Part shown: positions 454-11,880 of the stretch, in pieces
How positions within the stretch are numbered: position 1 is the first letter of the stretch
Layout of the letters: the number at the start of each line of letters is the position of its first letter
NCBI GenBank assembly: GCA_963752285.1
Contig: CAVVXN010000004.1
Location: 78,918 to 142,917 of the forward strand
DNA: 64,000 bases
DNA from: an uncultured Planctomycetota bacterium
GTDB lineage: Bacteria; Planctomycetota; PLA2; JAEUHO01
Direction: 5' to 3'
The notes under the pieces: generated by a model
Told to the model about the DNA's origin: nothing
What the model saw: only the letters and a program-made list of their open reading frames with translations
Databases searched by the model: none
Translations under genes and position numbers: made by a program

Positions 454-6800
<6,347 letters not shown>

Positions 6801-9334
6801 CGGATTCCCTCCGCAGCGCGCGCCGCAGGTCGTGCGGCGACGCCGGCTTGATCAGGTAGTGATCGAATCCCGCCGCGGATCCCTCGCGGCGGTCCTCCTC
6901 GCGGCCGTATCCCGTGAGCGCCACGAGCCGGGGCGCGTCGTCTCCCAGGAGCTCGTGCACACGGCGGGCGACGGCGAAGCCGTCCATCTCGGGCATCGAG
7001 ATGTCCACGAGGGCCACGTCCGGTCGCTGCTCCTGGATGAGCGCCACGCCCTCCGCGCCGTTCGAGGCGACGCGGACGTCCACGCCCCATTCCTGCAGGA
7101 GGACGGTCGTGGACAGCCGGACGTCGTTCTCGTCCTCGACGAGGACGACGCGCAGGCCCGGCTCCAGGGGAATGTCCGTATCCACGGGGGCGGGCGCGAC
7201 CTCCGCCGCCGCGGGCGCGAGGGGGAGTCGGACGACGAACTCGCTGCCGAGGTCCTCTCCCGGGCTCGCCGCCCGGACGGTCCCGCCATGCAGGGTCACG
7301 AGCTGACGGACGAGCGTGAGGCCGATTCCGAGGCCGCGCCCGTCTCCCCGCTGCTGGACGAAGATGTCGAAGACCCGCTCCAGGAGGTCGGCAGGGATCC
7401 CGCGGCCGTTGTCCGCCACGCGCACGACCGCGTCGGAGGCCTCGCGCTCGAGCACGAGGTGGATCCGGCCGCCATGCGGCGTGTAGCGCACCGCGTTGTT
7501 GAGGAGGTTGCTGACGATCTGGACCAGGCGGACCGCGTCCCCGTCCACGACGAGGGGCTCCGGCGCCACGTCCACCGCGAGCACGTGCCGGCGTTCGTCC
7601 ACGAGGTTTCGCACGCTCTCCACGGCCTGGGTCAGCGTGTTCCGCAGCTCGACCCGCTCCTTGCGGAGCACGATCTTCCCCTGGGAGATGCGCGAGACGT
7701 CGAGCAGGTCGTCCACGAGACGGACGAGGTGGCGCACCTGTCGGTCCATGCAGTCGCACAAATGCCGCTGCGAGTCCGGAGGCAGCGAGCGCCCGCGGAG
7801 GACGGCGACGCCGGTGAGGATAGGGGAGAGGGGGTTCCGCAGCTCGTGCGCGAGGACCGCGAGGAACCGGTCCTTGCGCTGGCTCTCCTCGCGAAGCGCG
7901 TCGGCCTCCCAGCGCTGGCGCTCCTCGGTCATCCTGCGCTCGAGCTCCCGCCGCTCGAGCTCGCGCAGGCGGTTGGCCTGCCGCTGGACCTCGGCGGTGC
8001 GCTCCTGGAGCTGGACGAAGACCGAAACCTTCGCGCGGAGCACCTCCGGCACGATCGGCTTGAACAGAAAGTCCACGGCGCCGAGGCGGTACCCGTGGAG
8101 GATCTCCGCGTCCTCCTGGGGATAGGCCGAGACGAAGATGATGGGAACATGGCGCGATCGGGGTCGCGAGCGGATGAGCCGGGCCGTCTCGAACCCGTCG
8201 AGCCCCGGCATGCGCACGTCGAGGAGGATCAGCGCGAAATCCCGCTGGAGCAGGGCCCGAAGCGCCGCCCGTCCCGAGTCCACGAGCACGAGCTCTCTTC
8301 CGAGGTCTTCGAGCGTCGCCTCGATCGCCGCGAGGTTGGCCGGGTCGTCATCGACGACGAGGATGTCGCCCGATCGAGCATCGGCGCACATCTCCGCGGG
8401 GTCATAGACCCCCGGCGTCTCGCCGGTGGGCTCGGTCAAAGGCGGATCCTCCCCGGTCTGGCTCCGTCGCGGCGCGCGGCCACGACACGCGACCGGCAGC
8501 CGCAATTCTGGTACCGGGCCGAGGGCCCGCACAATCGCGCGGCTCCGGGCCGAAAGCCCGGCAATTCGTGCCGCGTCCACGCGCACGCGGGGCGCACCGC
8601 GTGCACGACGTGCGATCGGGGAGGGGGCGCCGGCGCGGTCCCGCGGGATGTGGTGGGCCCAATGACCCGGCCGTCATCGACCTCCGCCCGGCTCACGGGT
8701 TCCGATCGCTCGGGCCGCCCCGTCCGGAGGCGTGCGTCGCCCGGCGCGGCGCCGCGCGGCCGCCGAGGAAGGTGCGGTCGGGTCCCGGCGGACCCGACCG
8801 CGGCGCAGCATCTTCGAACTCCACACCGACTCACTGACATCGGTCATCGGACATCCATTTCATCTTCGCGTCGTTCACCCCGCGTCCGGTGACGCACAGT
8901 ACGGATCCATCTCCACCCAACGCGCACGAACGACCTCACTTCGGTTGCTGTGGCCGACGCTCGGGGGTCGATCCCAGGTTCGGCCCTTTACCGACGAGAG
9001 CCCCGCCCAAGCAACGTCCGGGCCAATGGCGTCCGCCCCGCCCGCGCCGCGAGCTCACGCGAGGACGCGGGGGGCCCGCGCCCGCCCGGAACCCCCGGGA
9101 GAGCACGATGCGCATCGGCGGCTGCACCCTTCGTGCAGTCGCTGCACGCGCGCTTCAAGTCGCGGAGGCGGGTCGATGGCCCCCGAAGCCGAGAGCGGGG
9201 GCCGGTCTCCGCGCCGTGCGCACGTCGAGGCACGCACCTTGCGGTTGCCGGCCGACCGCATCGGCGCCGAGCGTAGTCGTTGGGCCGGGGAGCGTTCCGA
9301 TGCCGCATCCTCCCGGCGTGCTGGAGCGTGAATC

Positions 9335-10990
9335 ATGAGATGTCGAACTGGATGGATGATCTTCGCCGCGTCGCTGCTCACATGGGCGGCGGTCCCGGCG
9401 TTCGCGGACGACGCGCCCGCGGGACCGAACCCCGCCGCGACGGCAGGGCCGGCTTCGGTCTCGACGACGGTCGATGCGAACGACCAGATCGGTCCGCCCC
9501 CTGCCGTGCCCTCGCAGCCGTTCGAGGACTCGGGGGCGTCGCGGAGCCCCAACCCCGCCGCGGCCGAGGACGAGCCGTCCTCGGAGAACCTGCCCGGCGA
9601 CGACCAGGGCGAGAACCCGAACGAAGGCCGGCTGCCCGAGGGTCAGGAACCCGAAAGGGAGCAGCCCGCGGACCAGACGCCGCAGGGCCAGGCCGGGACG
9701 GGTGAGGTCCCGCTCTGCGGTGGGTGCATGTCCCGGCAGCCCGTGGGGGGATGCGCGTCCGTCACGTGCGCGCCCACGTGCAGCCAGCCGCGCTGCGCCT
9801 ACGTACCCTGTCACTACGAGACCCGGAGCCGCGAGGTGACGTGCCCGGCCGTGACGTGCCAGCGTCGCGTCCCCGAGTACGAGAACGTCGAGGTGCCCGT
9901 CTACCAGAAGGTCTGCACACCCTGCTACCAGAACGTGGAGATCCCCGTGTACGCCACGCGGGAGGTTCCCGTCTACACGACGCGCAAGGTGCCGGAGTAC
10001 GAGAACGTGGAGGTCGCGTGCTACGCGACGCGCCAGGTTCCCGTCTACACCACGCGGAAGGTGCCGGAGTACGAGAACGTGGAGGTCGCGTGCTACGCGA
10101 CGCGCCAGGTTCCCATCTACACCACGCGGAAGGTGCCGGAATTCCAGAACGTGGAGATCCCCGTCTACGCGACGCGTTGCATCCCCGAGTACGAGAACGT
10201 CGAGGTCCCCGTCTACGCGACGCGGTGCGTCCCGACCTACTGCGACGTCGAGGTGCCCGAGTACGACACGCGGCAGGTGCCGATCACCCGCGCCGTCTGC
10301 GATCCCTGCACGGGCCAGACGAGCGAGGTGGCGTGCGGCATGCGGACCGAGACGTACCAGTGCGGCACGCACACCGAGAAGCGGGTGTCCGGTCAGCGCA
10401 CGGAGACCTTTACGTGTTCGACGAGGACGGAGCGTCGCCTCAAGGGGCAGCGCACCGAGACGTACCAGTGCGGCACGCGGACGGAGCGTCGCTGCTCGGG
10501 CTACCGTGACGAGCAGGTCCTTTGCGGATACCGCCCCGAGCGCTACCAGTCCGGCACGCGTACCGAACAGCGCTTCAAGGACTACCGGTCCGAGCAGGTC
10601 CTCTGCGGCTACCGGCCCGAGCAGTACCAGTCGGGCACGCGCACCGAGAAGCGCCTCACGGGCTACCGCTCGGAGCAGGTCCAGTGCGGCACGCGCCGGG
10701 AGTGCTACCAGAACGGAACCCGCACGGAGCAGCGCCAGGTCGGCACCCGGACTGAGGTCGTGTGCACCGGCTCCCGCACCGAACGCCGCCTGTCGGGCTA
10801 CCGGACCGAGGAGGTGACCGTGCGCCCCGCGTCCACGCGGACCGTCCAGGAGCCGGTGATGGTCGCCGGCGGCTGGGTCACGGTCGTCCCCGAGGGACGG
10901 ACCGACGGCGTGAGCCCGCTCCCCGGCACCCGGAAGGTCCTCTCCCAGACCGAGTTCGAGCAGGTGACCCTTAGCGTTCCGGCGCGGTAG
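9335..10990 (+). CDS. secreted Cys/Pro/Tyr/Thr-rich repeat protein (predicted giant beta-hairpin)
   Basis: Signal peptide ending VPAFA, acidic disordered linker, Cys-rich segment, then 8-aa and 9-aa repeat blocks around DPCTG. Confidence 0.85.
   Translation: MRCRTGWMIFAASLLTWAAVPAFADDAPAGPNPAATAGPASVSTTVDANDQIGPPPAVPSQPFEDSGASRSPNPAAAEDEPSSENLPGDDQGENPNEGRLPEGQEPEREQPADQTPQGQAGTGEVPLCGGCMSRQPVGGCASVTCAPTCSQPRCAYVPCHYETRSREVTCPAVTCQRRVPEYENVEVPVYQKVCTPCYQNVEIPVYATREVPVYTTRKVPEYENVEVACYATRQVPVYTTRKVPEYENVEVACYATRQVPIYTTRKVPEFQNVEIPVYATRCIPEYENVEVPVYATRCVPTYCDVEVPEYDTRQVPITRAVCDPCTGQTSEVACGMRTETYQCGTHTEKRVSGQRTETFTCSTRTERRLKGQRTETYQCGTRTERRCSGYRDEQVLCGYRPERYQSGTRTEQRFKDYRSEQVLCGYRPEQYQSGTRTEKRLTGYRSEQVQCGTRRECYQNGTRTEQRQVGTRTEVVCTGSRTERRLSGYRTEEVTVRPASTRTVQEPVMVAGGWVTVVPEGRTDGVSPLPGTRKVLSQTEFEQVTLSVPAR
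9869..10822 (+). repeat. 18x24-bp (VPxYxxxx) block and 18x27-bp (GxRTExxxx) block
   Basis: Units counted from the translation: 9869-10300 and 10337-10822; near-identical 72-bp DNA copies at 9966-10037 and 10038-10109. Confidence 0.9.
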
Positions 10991-11008
10991 GGATGCCTTC
11001 CCGAAGGT

Positions 11009-11047
11009 GAGAGCGGGCCGCGGGCCTGTGGCTCGCGGCCCGCTCTC
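11009..11047 (+). terminator. 18-bp stem hairpin after the repeat-protein gene
   Basis: gagagcgggccgcgggcc-tgt-ggctcgcggcccgctctc; no long U-tract. Confidence 0.6.
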
Positions 11048-11076
11048 CTGCCCGCACCCGCTTTCCGGAGGTTTCC

Positions 11077-11568
11077 ATGCGCATTCTCCAGAGACACTCG
11101 CCCCGAGACCGAAGCGCGGGCGACCGCGCCGCGAGCCGAGACTGGTGCGAGTGCCTCGAGGGCGTCGTGCACGCGAGCCTCGAGATCTCCCAGGCCCGGG
11201 TCCTCCTCGCCGCGGGCGAGTCCGACGAGGACCTCCGCGGCACGACGATGCGCAGGGCGCTCGAGGAGCGAGGCTGGGCCGAGGCGCTCCACCGCGAGGC
11301 GGGGGCGTTCCTCGCGCGCGGACCCCGCGCGGTCCGCCCGCTCGCCGTGCGACCCAGCGCCCGCCGGATGCGACGTGCCCTGCTCGCCGGGGACCCCATC
11401 CTGCTCGAGCGTGCGCTCGCGGTCGACGTGCGACGACTCGCGCACGGCTGCCGCCGATTGCTCCGGAGGCTCGACACCCCGGAGTCCGTCCGGCGTCTCC
11501 TCGCGCAGCGCGTCGCCGACCTCGACGACCTGGAGACCGGCCGACTGCCACCGTCCCGGGCGGGATGA
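11077..11568 (+). CDS. hypothetical protein
   Basis: GGAGG RBS 5 nt upstream; helical-looking composition; no recognised motif. Confidence 0.5.
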   Translation: MRILQRHSPRDRSAGDRAASRDWCECLEGVVHASLEISQARVLLAAGESDEDLRGTTMRRALEERGWAEALHREAGAFLARGPRAVRPLAVRPSARRMRRALLAGDPILLERALAVDVRRLAHGCRRLLRRLDTPESVRRLLAQRVADLDDLETGRLPPSRAG

Positions 11569-11613
11569 CGGGCGCGCGGGCACACGACCCGGCGCCGCCG
11601 AGCGGACGCCTCC

Positions 11614-11880
11614 TCAGAACCGGAAGCGCCCCCAGCGCCAGGATCCCAGGTCGAGGACGACCGCGAGGACCATCACGAGCAGCCAGAAGCTCCCGTGGAC
11701 CCCGCCGGCGGTATTGACGGCCACCGCGTACGCGAGCGTCGTGGTCGGCGCGACGACGAACCCGACGAGCGGGAGGAGCAGGCCCGTGTAGACGCGCGCC
11801 AGGTAGCTCGTGAACAACGCGAGCACGATCAGCACCGCGCGCGGGGCCAGGAGTCCGATGATCGCGAGGAGAATGGGCAT
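11614..11880 (-). CDS. small integral membrane protein
   Basis: 88 aa with about three hydrophobic segments (PR...GF..P.TTLAY pattern); GGAG RBS. Confidence 0.8.
   Translation of the reverse strand: MPILLAIIGLLAPRAVLIVLALFTSYLARVYTGLLLPLVGFVVAPTTTLAYAVAVNTAGGVHGSFWLLVMVLAVVLDLGSWRWGRFRF

What the first reader, a model, noticed from the sequence alone, without database searches (positions are those of the whole stretch)
9335..10990. Mirror-repeat protein predicted to fold into one giant beta-hairpin
Seen: 18 consecutive 8-aa units (VPxYxxxx, 9869-10300), a CDPCTG turn, then 18 9-aa units (GxRTExxxx, 10337-10822). Reading outward from the turn, outgoing unit i faces returning unit 18-i and the types match. 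ENVE/QNVE/CDVE units face TE-x-R units, TTRK units face [DS]EQV units, and ATRx/DTRQ units face E-x-[YF] units. A charge swap also matches (ATRE faces RREC). The flanks continue the symmetry (YETRSREVTCPA with PASTRTVQEPV). Inference: the 8-versus-9 period means one Gly beta-bulge per unit opposite Pro, giving a twisted two-stranded ribbon roughly 45-50 nm long (144 residues at ~0.33 nm). The many Cys could cross-link neighbouring molecules. This may be an envelope scaffold, fibre or molecular ruler. It recalls the Cys/Pro-rich YTV envelope proteins of Rhodopirellula, but homology is not shown.
Basis: partly seen in the sequence, partly recalled or inferred. Interest (0 to 1): 0.82.

Follow-up and report, generated by a model that had tools for sequence, protein, structure and literature searches.

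The report
Giant two-armed beta-hairpin rod protein
A secreted planctomycete protein is built from two different short-repeat arrays that always come in equal numbers and most likely zip together into a single very long, thin beta-hairpin rod, a kind of protein for which no name or solved structure was found.

Summary
ORF 9335-10990 (+), 551 aa, is a real gene (GC3 0.92). It has a signal-peptide-like start, an acidic disordered stretch and a Cys-rich segment. Then come 18 units of 8 aa (VPxY type), a CDPCTG turn, 18 units of 9 aa (GxRTE type) and a conserved 55-aa tail.

Pfam and NCBIfam give nothing, and it is not a YTV-family member. Arm lengths fit the 8:9 rule exactly in 15 of 19 measurable proteins and within one residue in 18 of 19. 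Three paralogs in this genome have 18/18, 13/13 and about 7/7 units. Unit losses between relatives sit at mirrored distances from the turn.

AlphaFold2 models an 11/11 homolog (pLDDT 81) as one strand of 94 residues, a 6-residue turn and one strand of 106 residues. No solved structure resembles it (best Z 3.1).

The mirror match of unit types is not decisive on its own, because a parallel register fits nearly as well. Function is inferred: a length-tunable envelope rod. Oligomeric state, disulfides and location are untested.

The parts
9335..10990 (+). Whole gene (551 codons plus stop), protein P0001
   Evidence: ORF; translation; GC3 0.92; homologs down to E 6e-76
9335..9406 (+). Signal-peptide-like N-terminus (residues 1-24: basic start, hydrophobic core, A-F-A before D-D)
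   Evidence: Read; no predictor was run. Homologs in alignment A1 have the same kind of start ending in A-x-A. AF2 models the equivalent part of P0002 as a helix, residues 2-17.
9407..9709 (+). Acidic, Pro/Gly/Gln-rich low-complexity stretch (residues 25-125), probably disordered
   Evidence: Sequence. It is absent or much shorter in most homologs. I did not fold it.
9710..9868 (+). Cys-rich base segment (residues 126-178) ending in the conserved PA-V-T anchor; its last ~25 residues are modelled as strand
   Evidence: anchor. AF2 strands at model residues 24-28 and 31-41 correspond to protein residues 153-170.
9869..10300 (+). Arm A: 18 units of 8 aa (V-P-x-Y-x-x-x-x), net charge -6
   Evidence: AF2 strand
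10301..10336 (+). Turn region (residues 323-334, D-P-C-T-G then 7 residues ending in a conserved Cys)
   Evidence: C, D, T and G are nearly invariant in alignments A1/A2. In the P0002 model only six residues (177-182) are non-strand.
10337..10822 (+). Arm B: 18 units of 9 aa (G-x-R-T-E-x-x-x-x), net charge +12
   Evidence: AF2 strand
10823..10987 (+). Conserved C-terminal tail (residues 497-551): R-P-A anchor, two more strands that pair with the base segment, then a short helix
   Evidence: Consensus. AF2 elements E371-381, E384-389 and H409-417 in model numbering; the same elements appear in P0002.

Best explanation
The gene encodes a secreted structural protein of a planctomycete. After export, arm A (18 Pro-containing octads, acidic) and arm B (18 Gly-containing nonads, basic) zip together antiparallel from the CDPCTG turn. 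They form one continuous two-stranded beta-ribbon of about 170 residues per strand (roughly 50-55 nm). The ninth residue of each arm-B unit is taken up as one bulge per unit. Both chain ends lie at the same end of the rod (the base): the disordered acidic N-terminal region with the Cys-rich segment, and the small C-terminal domain. The far tip is just the turn. Rod length is set by the unit number, and evolution changes it only by mirrored gain or loss of units in both arms. This genome therefore carries rods of three lengths (18, 13 and about 7 units). What is shown: the repeat anatomy, the equal counts, the mirrored indels and the AF2 hairpin. What is inferred: the exact residue register, the regular Pro in arm A and regular bulge in arm B acting as edge protection against sideways aggregation, an envelope or surface location, and a role as a strut, spacer or fibre possibly locked by disulfides.
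For: - **Real, exported-looking protein:** GC3 is 0.92. The N-terminus looks like a signal peptide, and this is shared by homologs.
- **Equal unit counts:** Anchor-to-turn and turn-to-anchor distances obey LB = 9(LA-7)/8 + 8 exactly in 15 of the 19 proteins where both anchors could be measured, and within one residue in 18 of 19. These cover 5, 6, 8, 9, 11, 13 and 18 units. Further cases come from segmentation: 5/5, 11/11 three times, and 12/12 read by eye.
- **Paralogs in this genome:** 18/18, 13/13 and about 7/7 units.
- **Mirrored indels:** Unit-level alignments made separately for each arm place indels at mirrored ranks from the turn. P0010 vs P0046 gives A ranks 10-11 and B ranks 9-10. 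P0046 vs P0072 gives A 6-8 and B 5-7. P0003 vs P0047 gives A 6-8 and B 5-7. These are exactly what the register a(i)-b(n-i) expects.
- **Matching duplications:** The most recent block duplication in arm A (a6-8 vs a9-11, 1 difference in 72 nt) has as mirror partners the most similar blocks of arm B (b7-9 vs b10-12, 15 in 81 nt).
- **Covariation:** Over 19 family members, total unit-to-unit mutual information is highest for the mirror register (23.4 nats, z 25, 174 pairs). The parallel registers with the same number of pairs give 18.6-18.8, and the best parallel register gives z 14.
- **AF2 on the 11/11 homolog P0002 (22-row alignment):** mean pLDDT 81.1. Strand 83-176 (94 residues), loop 177-182, strand 183-288 (106 residues), a ratio of 1.13 against 9/8 = 1.125. 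The flanks continue the pairing.
- **AF2 on the window protein:** the base half has the same long strands at pLDDT 80-92.
- **Linker length:** only 6-12 residues join the arms, so pairing within one chain can only be antiparallel.
- **Charge:** arm A is -6 and arm B is +12. Arm A is more negative than arm B in 14 of 19 members.
Against: - **No coordinates:** The tools return no coordinates or contact map, so arm-to-arm contacts in the models are inferred from secondary structure and geometry only.
- **Weak points of the AF2 models:** pTM is low (0.27 and 0.31). The central 7+7 units of the window protein, which the alignment does not cover, came out at pLDDT below 50. AF2 is documented to give confident but unrealistic models for repeat sequences (PMC11795689, abstract read).
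- **Tests that do not discriminate:** The unit-type pattern fits a parallel register almost as well (14/15 against 16/17). So does the duplication-age profile (rho 0.79 against 0.82).
- **No residue-level signal:** Covariation gave no clean anti-diagonal, and Cys-Cys co-occurrence was weak once the invariant turn pair is set aside.
- **Divergent relatives:** In 14 relatives with a long middle section, my crude unit counter found no correlation between arms (rho -0.09).
- **Non-independence:** The family members are kin, so the z-scores overstate.
- **No precedent:** A free two-stranded ribbon this long has no solved precedent.
- **Function:** Nothing here bears directly on location or function. 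The neighbouring genes are signalling proteins, and the downstream ORFs are not conserved next to homologs.
Confidence: 0.6

Rival explanations
1. The hairpin is only a building block. Several chains assemble side by side into a larger beta structure. This could be a trimeric intertwined beta-helix like phage tail spikes, or a long soluble beta-barrel tube like the stems of pore-forming toxins. The free ribbon would then not be the functional form.
For: Arrays of x-P-x-Y octads without an arm B occur in giant phage-fibre-like proteins found by the same search. P0051 carries Peptidase_S74 and Laminin_G_3, and P0064 matches Gp5_trimer_C. The only local structural analogues found are hairpins of multimeric channels: the anthrax protective-antigen channel (Z 3.1, 68 residues aligned), the phi29 tail, and the lysenin and aerolysin pores. 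Many cysteines have no partner inside the hairpin in any register I tried.
Against: Both faces of the ribbon are highly charged, with no consistently hydrophobic face. Pro every 8 residues in one arm and an extra residue every 9 in the other are classical ways to block edge-to-edge strand pairing (recalled from Richardson and Richardson 2002, not from a call). The window protein itself has no Pfam match to the gp5 or fibre families. All structural matches are weak (E above 0.001, Z at most 3.1).
Confidence: 0.2
2. Arm A pairs with arm B of another molecule rather than with its own arm B. This would give domain-swapped dimers or head-to-tail polymers, and so a network or fibre instead of single rods.
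For: Equal counts and A/B complementarity would be required in this case too. The type pattern and the duplication-age profile also fit a parallel shifted register. In the relatives from uncultured Bacilli the two arms are separated by about 90 residues and come in the reverse order, so the tight turn is not essential to the module.
Against: The CDPCTG turn is nearly invariant in the planctomycete family. Indels are mirrored about the turn, which argues against any parallel arrangement. AF2 closes the hairpin within one chain.
Confidence: 0.1
3. The repeats have no fixed structure. The protein would be a charged, disordered, low-complexity linker or hydrogel-like envelope protein, and the AF2 hairpin would be an artefact.
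For: AF2 over-predicts confident beta structures for repeats (PMC11795689, abstract). pTM is 0.27-0.31. About 30% of arm residues are charged. The alignments are shallow (19 and 22 rows).
Against: Disorder does not explain three findings: the two different arrays keep equal unit numbers from 5 to 18 units, indels are mirrored, and the turn is conserved. The composition is rich in V, Y, T and R, which favour strands.
Confidence: 0.06
4. Each arm folds on its own into a triangular beta-solenoid. Three units would make one coil (24 or 27 residues), with Pro or Gly at the corners, and the two solenoids would stack end to end.
For: Both arms have a three-unit super-period of 72 nt and 81 nt. The three unit types could be the three faces.
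Against: Unit numbers of 5, 7, 8, 11 and 13 are not multiples of three, and part of the window protein has a two-unit period. Independent solenoids give no reason for equal counts. There is no consistently hydrophobic inward position. AF2 shows unbroken strands of 94 and 106 residues rather than 6-residue rungs.
Confidence: 0.04

Closest known systems
YTV-domain proteins (Pfam PF07639), cysteine-rich cell-wall proteins of Planctomycetia
   Same: Both are secreted, Cys-rich, short-repeat proteins of the same phylum. Papers report YTV proteins in cell-wall preparations, and the YTV-domain protein appears among the essential genes of Planctopirus limnophila (passages read in PMC12673574, PMC8567305 and PMC10632474). 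The YTV proteins I fetched also have two repeat arms of about equal span on either side of a Cys-rich middle: 9 + 9 clear 16-aa repeats by eye in L028. A language-model search lists YTV clusters as the nearest look-alikes, at 0.85, which is a lead only. The two families occur in different lineages among the genomes sampled. This family is in 8/10 genomes of the window's family and 0/15 of family f5. YTV is in 8/8 of f5 and 0/4 of the window's family.
   Different: There is no sequence homology. The window protein has no PF07639 hit at E up to 1, and its genome has none either. BLASTP gives E 0.14. The profile-profile comparison aligns only 9 signal-peptide columns. YTV arms both have a 16-aa period and are far richer in Cys. 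They are joined by an ~80-aa knob, not a 6-residue turn.
Streptococcal antigen I/II adhesins (A-region and P-region fold-back stalk)
   Same: The design principle is the same (recalled from Larson et al. 2010, not from a call). Two different repeat arrays in one chain, present in matching numbers, fold back on each other to give a stalk tens of nanometres long. The relatives from uncultured Bacilli, with a membrane anchor and a ~90-aa tip between the arms, look most like this layout.
   Different: In AgI/II the stalk is an alpha-helix wound with a polyproline-II helix, and the repeats are 82 and 39 residues long. Here both arms are predicted to be beta strands with 8- and 9-residue units. No sequence relation was tested or is expected.
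SasG/Aap G5-E rods and the OspA single-layer beta-sheet
   Same: These are elongated, highly charged beta structures without a hydrophobic core that nevertheless form stiff rods (recalled, not from a call).
   Different: They are chains of small three-stranded domains or a short sheet between globular ends, not one continuous hairpin. They did not appear in the structure searches.
Beta-hairpin stems of pore-forming toxins and phage tail channels (anthrax protective-antigen channel, lysenin, aerolysin, phi29 tail)
   Same: These hold the longest beta-hairpins among solved structures, and they were the only, weak, structural matches: Foldseek best E 0.0036, VIA Z 3.1 over 68 residues.
   Different: Those hairpins have about 30-50 residues per strand, and they exist only inside multimeric barrels. 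There is no repeat structure and no sequence similarity.
Octapeptide-repeat triple beta-helices of phage spikes and fibres (T4 gp5 C-terminal domain type)
   Same: They have an 8-residue period. Distant search hits with x-P-x-Y octads carry fibre domains.
   Different: Those proteins have one array only and are trimers of parallel chains. The window protein has no Pfam match to them, and it pairs its octads with a second, 9-residue array.

Membership tests
YTV domain proteins (PF07639) | Match to the Pfam YTV model above its cut-off (21 bits) | tested here: not met
   The window protein has no PF07639 hit at E up to 1, and P0002 has none at E up to 0.01. The window's whole genome has no match at E up to 0.01, with completeness 89%. 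The same model does find 11 of 201 genomes of the phylum.
YTV domain proteins (PF07639) | Profile-level sequence relationship to YTV proteins | tested here: not met
   hhalign of the family alignment A2 against four YTV proteins (A3) aligns only 9 columns, in the signal peptide. BLASTP gives E 0.14. The language-model similarity of 0.85 is below the tool's own level of trust.
YTV domain proteins (PF07639) | Secreted, Cys-rich repeat protein found in planctomycete cell-wall fractions | not testable with these tools
   The signal-peptide-like start and the many Cys are seen. Location needs proteomics, and no RNA or protein data were found.
Fold-back two-arm stalk (working class, AgI/II-like) | Two different repeat arrays in one chain present in equal numbers | tested here: met
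   15/19 exact and 18/19 within one residue of the 8:9 rule. A crude count over all hits gives 55 of 79 within one unit.
Fold-back two-arm stalk (working class, AgI/II-like) | The arms run antiparallel and contact each other along their length | tested here: inconclusive
   In favour: the AF2 secondary structure and 9:8 strand lengths, mirrored indels and the best mutual information in the mirror register. Against a firm answer: no coordinates, no residue-level covariation signal and no experiment.
T4 gp5-type octapeptide triple beta-helix (PF22178) | Match to the family model; a single array of V-x-G octads in a trimer | tested here: not met
   The window protein has no Pfam hit. Only a distant search hit, P0064, matches PF22178. 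Trimer formation was not tested.
Beta-pore-forming toxin stems | Global fold similarity to a pore-forming toxin protomer | tested here: inconclusive
   There are only weak local matches to the stem hairpins (Foldseek E at least 0.0036; VIA Z at most 3.1). No head domain is present.

The most novel reading that the evidence does not exclude
This is one member of an unrecognised, widespread class of bacterial fold-back beta-ribbon rods. The class would be built from two co-evolving complementary repeat arrays (Pro-type octads and Gly-type nonads), with length adjusted in steps of about 2.7 nm by mirrored unit gain and loss. In planctomycetes lacking YTV proteins these rods would be the counterpart of the YTV wall proteins, which themselves show two equal arms. 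They would act as struts or molecular rulers that set envelope spacing. Uncultured Bacilli would use the same module in reverse order as a membrane-anchored stalk that displays a tip domain.
Probability: 0.25. Interest if true: 0.88.

Novelty: new variant of a known kind. Interest (0 to 1): 0.72.

Why it matters
If the model is right, this is the longest single beta-hairpin known, and it shows how nature keeps a core-less two-stranded ribbon soluble and in register. It would also be an unusually clear natural case of two repeat arrays forced to co-evolve in number, readable directly from genomes. The rod would be a protein whose length can be dialled in fixed steps, which interests protein design and nanomaterials. 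For planctomycete biology it offers a structural idea for the poorly understood proteinaceous envelope. It gives a hypothesis for lineages that lack YTV proteins, and it suggests that YTV proteins themselves may be two-armed rods.

Tried and rejected
- **Family libraries:** Pfam and NCBIfam scans of the protein gave only sub-threshold chance hits or nothing. A sequence search of PDB chains gave one chance hit at E 0.021.
- **Structure searches:** Foldseek on the window model found nothing. Foldseek and VIA-wide on the P0002 model found only weak rows, so no known fold was assigned.
- **Dimer prediction:** Complex prediction with two copies of P0002 residues 57-344 returned 'no answer' (score 0.00, controls not run). 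It counts neither for nor against self-association.
- **Expression data:** The look-up of sequencing runs listed four soil-metagenome DNA runs of one study, with at most 0.26 of the sampled words and no RNA holder. I did not lay reads.
- **Locus search with the alignment:** I used the genome search instead.
- **Promoters and terminators:** the consensus scan found none in 8500-11700, which is uninformative in this organism.
- **Operon partners:** the two small ORFs downstream (11077-11568 +, 11614-11880 -) have no Pfam family. They are not found next to homologs within the ~1.5 kb flanks held.
- **Residue-level covariation:** the mutual-information matrices are dominated by unit-type effects and show no anti-diagonal. 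Cys-Cys co-occurrence is driven mostly by the invariant turn pair.
- **Mirror versus parallel tests that did not separate the two:** unit types and the duplication-age profile.
- **Literature:** I looked for a prior description with four searches: YTV/cell wall terms; beta-hairpin/tandem repeat/Planctomycetes; long beta-hairpin/AlphaFold/repeat protein; YTV/AlphaFold/hairpin. None described this family or a hairpin model of YTV proteins. The paper I recalled as the main YTV bioinformatics source (Mahajan et al. 2020) is not held, and supplements were closed, so a description there cannot be excluded.
- **Considered and rejected:** a solenoid per arm, and an outer layer wrapping an inner prism. 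One extra residue per side is far too little for a second layer.
Full report
**1. What is in the sequence**

The window is about 72% GC. The ORF 9335-10990 on the + strand gives a 551-aa protein, P0001. Its third-codon-position GC is 0.92 and its second-position GC is 0.54. That is the signature of true genes in this window, and the overlapping ORFs on other frames lack it.

The protein reads, in order:
- A signal-peptide-like start, residues 1-24. This was judged by eye; no predictor was available.
- An acidic Pro/Gly/Gln-rich stretch, residues 25-125.
- A Cys-rich segment, residues 126-178.
- 18 units of 8 residues, residues 179-322.
- A 12-residue linker that begins D-P-C-T-G.
- 18 units of 9 residues, residues 335-496.
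- A 55-residue tail.

The periodicity is very regular. In arm A, Pro is at position 2 in 16/18 units and Tyr at position 4 in 16/18. In arm B, Gly is at position 1 in 16/18, Arg at position 3 in 17/18 and Glu at position 5 in 18/18. At DNA level each arm also has a three-unit super-period, of 72 nt and 81 nt.

**2. The mirror pattern of unit types**

A parallel register shifted by three units gives 14 of 15.

Both arms have a two-unit period at one end, a three-unit period in the middle and a two-unit period at the other end. That pattern is nearly its own mirror image. The type symmetry is therefore real but does not decide the orientation. The same holds for the profile of how similar each unit is to the unit three places on: rho is 0.82 for the mirror register and 0.79 for the best parallel one.

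**3. Relatives**

Pfam and NCBIfam give no family, and no PDB chain is related by sequence. A word-indexed search found 42 relatives. A full HMMER scan of 1.84 billion representatives found 340 at E up to 0.001, and 13 at E up to 1e-30. The only source name seen is 'hypothetical protein', from a Planctomycetota MAG.

The close relatives share the whole architecture: signal peptide, P-A-V-T anchor, arm A, a nearly invariant C-D-P-C-T-G turn, arm B, an R-P-A anchor and the C-terminal tail.

The window's own assembly is 4.64 Mb and 89% complete. It holds two clear paralogs, on contigs C2 and C1, and a weak fourth match on C5.

I searched 301 genomes of the phylum with the C-terminal half of the protein at E up to 1e-5. 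Matches occur in 8 of 10 other genomes of the window's family, in 0 of 5 genomes of the sister family of the order, and in none of the rest. There are often 2-4 matches per genome, some in tandem.

**4. The decisive test: are the arms equal in homologs?**

I measured LA, the distance from the conserved N-side P-A anchor to the turn, and LB, the distance from the turn to the C-side P-A anchor. Both anchors could be read in 19 proteins.
- 15 obey LB = 9(LA-7)/8 + 8 exactly. These are the window protein (151/170, 18 units), the C2 paralog (111/125, 13 units), ten 11-unit proteins (95/107), two 8-unit proteins (71/80) and one 5-unit protein (47/53).
- Three more are within one residue: P0046 (9 units), P0072 (6 units) and L012, which has a turn two residues longer.
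- One, P0075, is off by five residues. Its arm B looks garbled in the alignment.

Segmentation of ORFs from genomes of the same family adds 11/11 three times and 5/5. It also adds a 12/12 case, where five units were detected and seven more were read by eye, and one protein with 18 arm-A units against 14 detected plus about four degenerate arm-B units. The C1 paralog has about 7/7 with a larger turn.

A crude automatic counter run over all 184 proteins then in hand found both arms in 79.
- Counts agree within one unit in 55 of the 79. None of 2000 permutations reached that number.
- The 21 reverse-order proteins agree within one unit in 17.
- The 14 divergent proteins with a long middle section show no correlation (rho -0.09). 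The counter probably misses degenerate units there.

The proteins are kin, so these are not independent trials. Even so, unit number has changed many times, from 5 to 18, and both arms changed together each time.

**5. Orientation**

Three lines of evidence go beyond the type pattern.

First, only 6-12 residues join the arms. Pairing within one chain can therefore only be antiparallel.

Second, I aligned units between pairs of relatives, separately for each arm. The unmatched units lie at mirrored ranks from the turn. The register a(i)-b(n-i) predicts that rank r in arm A corresponds to rank r-1 in arm B.
- P0010 vs P0046: A ranks 10-11, B ranks 9-10. That is the N-terminal end of arm A and the C-terminal end of arm B.
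- P0008 vs P0046: A ranks 9-10, B ranks 9-10.
- P0046 vs P0072: A ranks 6-8, B ranks 5-7.
- P0003 vs P0047: A ranks 6-8, B ranks 5-7.

The first, third and fourth of these match the prediction exactly. Comparisons that involve the periodic middle are ambiguous by one super-period, for example the window protein against 11-unit relatives. Only the off-centre cases (P0046, P0072) discriminate, and they reflect perhaps two events.

Third, I summed mutual information between facing units over 19 family members. It is highest for the mirror register, at 23.4 nats over 174 pairs (z 25 against within-protein shuffles). The parallel registers with the same number of pairs give 18.6-18.8, and the best parallel register reaches z 14.

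Residue-level matrices show no clean anti-diagonal, and the Cys-Cys signal is weak. The exact register therefore remains open.

**6. Structure prediction**

AlphaFold2 was run on the 11-unit homolog P0002 with a 22-row alignment. Mean pLDDT is 81.1, with blocks of 80-92 along the arms. The model has a strand at 83-176, a loop at 177-182 and a strand at 183-288. Further paired strands come from the flanks (62-80 with 291-310), followed by a C-terminal helix. The strand lengths of 94 and 106 residues stand in a ratio of 1.13, against 9/8 = 1.125. In the model the two arms therefore cover the same distance, and arm B must absorb about one extra residue per unit.

For the window protein (residues 130-551, 19-row alignment) the base half is modelled the same way at pLDDT 80-92. 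The central 7+7 units have no counterpart in the alignment and fall below pLDDT 50.

Caveats:
- pTM is 0.27-0.31, which is expected for a rod but uninformative.
- No coordinates are returned, so I could not check contacts or whether Gly faces Pro.
- AF2 is known to produce confident but unrealistic models for repeat sequences (PMC11795689, abstract read).

Structure searches found nothing convincing. The best rows are the hairpin stems of multimeric channels: Foldseek E 0.0036 for the phi29 tail, and VIA Z 3.1 over 68 residues for the anthrax protective-antigen channel.

**7. How it most likely works**

I take the protein to be exported and to fold back at the turn into one two-stranded ribbon. 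About 170 residues per strand are modelled as strand (153-322 and 329-518). At 0.33 nm per residue that is about 55 nm, of which 47 nm is repeats.

Both termini sit at the base and the tip is only the turn. Arm A carries net charge -6 and arm B +12. Arm A is the more negative arm in 14 of 19 members, which would favour zipping.

The regular Pro in arm A has an even period, so it always lies on the same edge. Together with the regular extra residue in arm B, it is what one would place on the outer edges of a ribbon to stop sideways aggregation. This is my inference from recalled design rules, not from a call.

Length changes by duplication or loss of blocks in both arms. In the window gene the youngest arm-A duplication differs at 1 of 72 nt. 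Its mirror partners are the most similar blocks of arm B, differing at 15 of 81 nt. The unequal divergence is unexplained; gene conversion in arm A is one possibility.

Function is inferred only. The signal peptide, the many Cys, a lipobox-like start that I read in one homolog (P0047) and the analogy with YTV proteins all point to the envelope. Three rod lengths in one genome suggest a spacer, strut or fibre.

The genomic context gives no help. The neighbours are a hybrid histidine kinase, a HAMP-array protein and a PAS kinase. The small downstream ORFs are not conserved beside homologs.

**8. Comparison with what is known**

Papers describe YTV proteins as Cys-rich proteins found in planctomycete cell-wall preparations and restricted to Planctomycetia. 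The YTV-domain protein appears among the essential genes of Planctopirus limnophila (passages read in PMC12673574, PMC8567305 and PMC10632474).

Membership of that family was tested and is not met. The YTV proteins I fetched nevertheless also show two arms of 16-aa repeats of about equal span around a Cys-rich middle. The two families occupy different lineages among the genomes sampled. A language-model search also ranks YTV clusters nearest, at 0.85, which is only a lead.

The module also occurs in reverse order, with a membrane anchor and a ~90-aa tip domain, in MAGs labelled uncultured Bacilli. That layout recalls the fold-back stalk of streptococcal antigen I/II (recalled, not from a call).

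Octad arrays without an arm B occur in phage-fibre-like giants. This keeps an oligomeric rival alive.

**9. Verdict**

Function, oligomeric state and disulfide chemistry are open.

I found no description of this family, or of a hairpin model for YTV proteins, in four literature searches.

Noticed in passing
L028 (about 1141-2676 +) and L029 (about 1096-2454 +), loci from other planctomycete genomes: Bona fide YTV-domain proteins also have a two-arm layout. A first array of 16-aa repeats is followed by an ~80-aa Cys-rich middle with a P-G-P-V-V motif and then a second, different array of 16-aa repeats of about the same span (9 + 9 clear repeats by eye in L028). This suggests that YTV wall proteins may be fold-back rods too. 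I found no paper saying so.
   Followed up: partly
P0012, P0014, P0016, P0026; loci L036-L046: Proteins from MAGs labelled uncultured Bacilli carry the same two repeat types in reverse order (9-aa G-type first, 8-aa P-type second). The arms are separated by a ~90-aa Cys-containing segment and preceded by an N-terminal membrane anchor and a globular part. Arm counts agree within one unit in 17 of 21 by a crude count.
   Followed up: partly
Genomes G233 (contig C220), G167 (C3), G025 (C6) and G201 (C3): Family members often lie in tandem. Three are within about 6 kb in one genome and two are adjacent in others, so paralogs of different length arise by local duplication.
   Followed up: no
P0051 (residues ~1040-1330), P0052 (~3030-3300), P0064 (~880-1140): Giant proteins have long arrays of x-P-x-Y-G-N-x-x or V-E-V-P-R-x-Q-T octads and no arm B. 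Some carry phage-fibre domains (Peptidase_S74, Laminin_G_3, Gp5_trimer_C). They are probably trimeric beta-helical fibres that share only the octad period with arm A.
   Followed up: partly
window 9926-10176 versus 10451-10735: The repeated blocks of arm A are far more alike (90% matches; one pair differs at 1 of 72 nt) than their presumed partner blocks in arm B (76%; 15 of 81 nt). If the two arms duplicated together, something such as gene conversion has kept arm A more uniform. This is unexplained.
   Followed up: partly
window 4143-6800 (-) and 3243-3857 (-): A protein of 885 aa consists largely of a chain of HAMP domains (8 stretches matching HAMP_2). A second HAMP protein follows it, and both lie next to a hybrid histidine kinase/response regulator (6661-8586, -). 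This is an unusual poly-HAMP signalling array.
   Followed up: no
window 8587-9334: About 750 bp lie between the divergently oriented kinase gene and the start of the rod gene. The consensus scan found no sigma-70-like promoter there.
   Followed up: no
P0044 (883 aa): A high-scoring hit (E 5.5e-44) is a eukaryote-looking protein with about 35 near-identical 9-aa repeats of the A-G-T-R-H-D-M-V-Q type. It matches arm B by periodicity and composition only and is best treated as a repeat artefact of the search.
   Followed up: no
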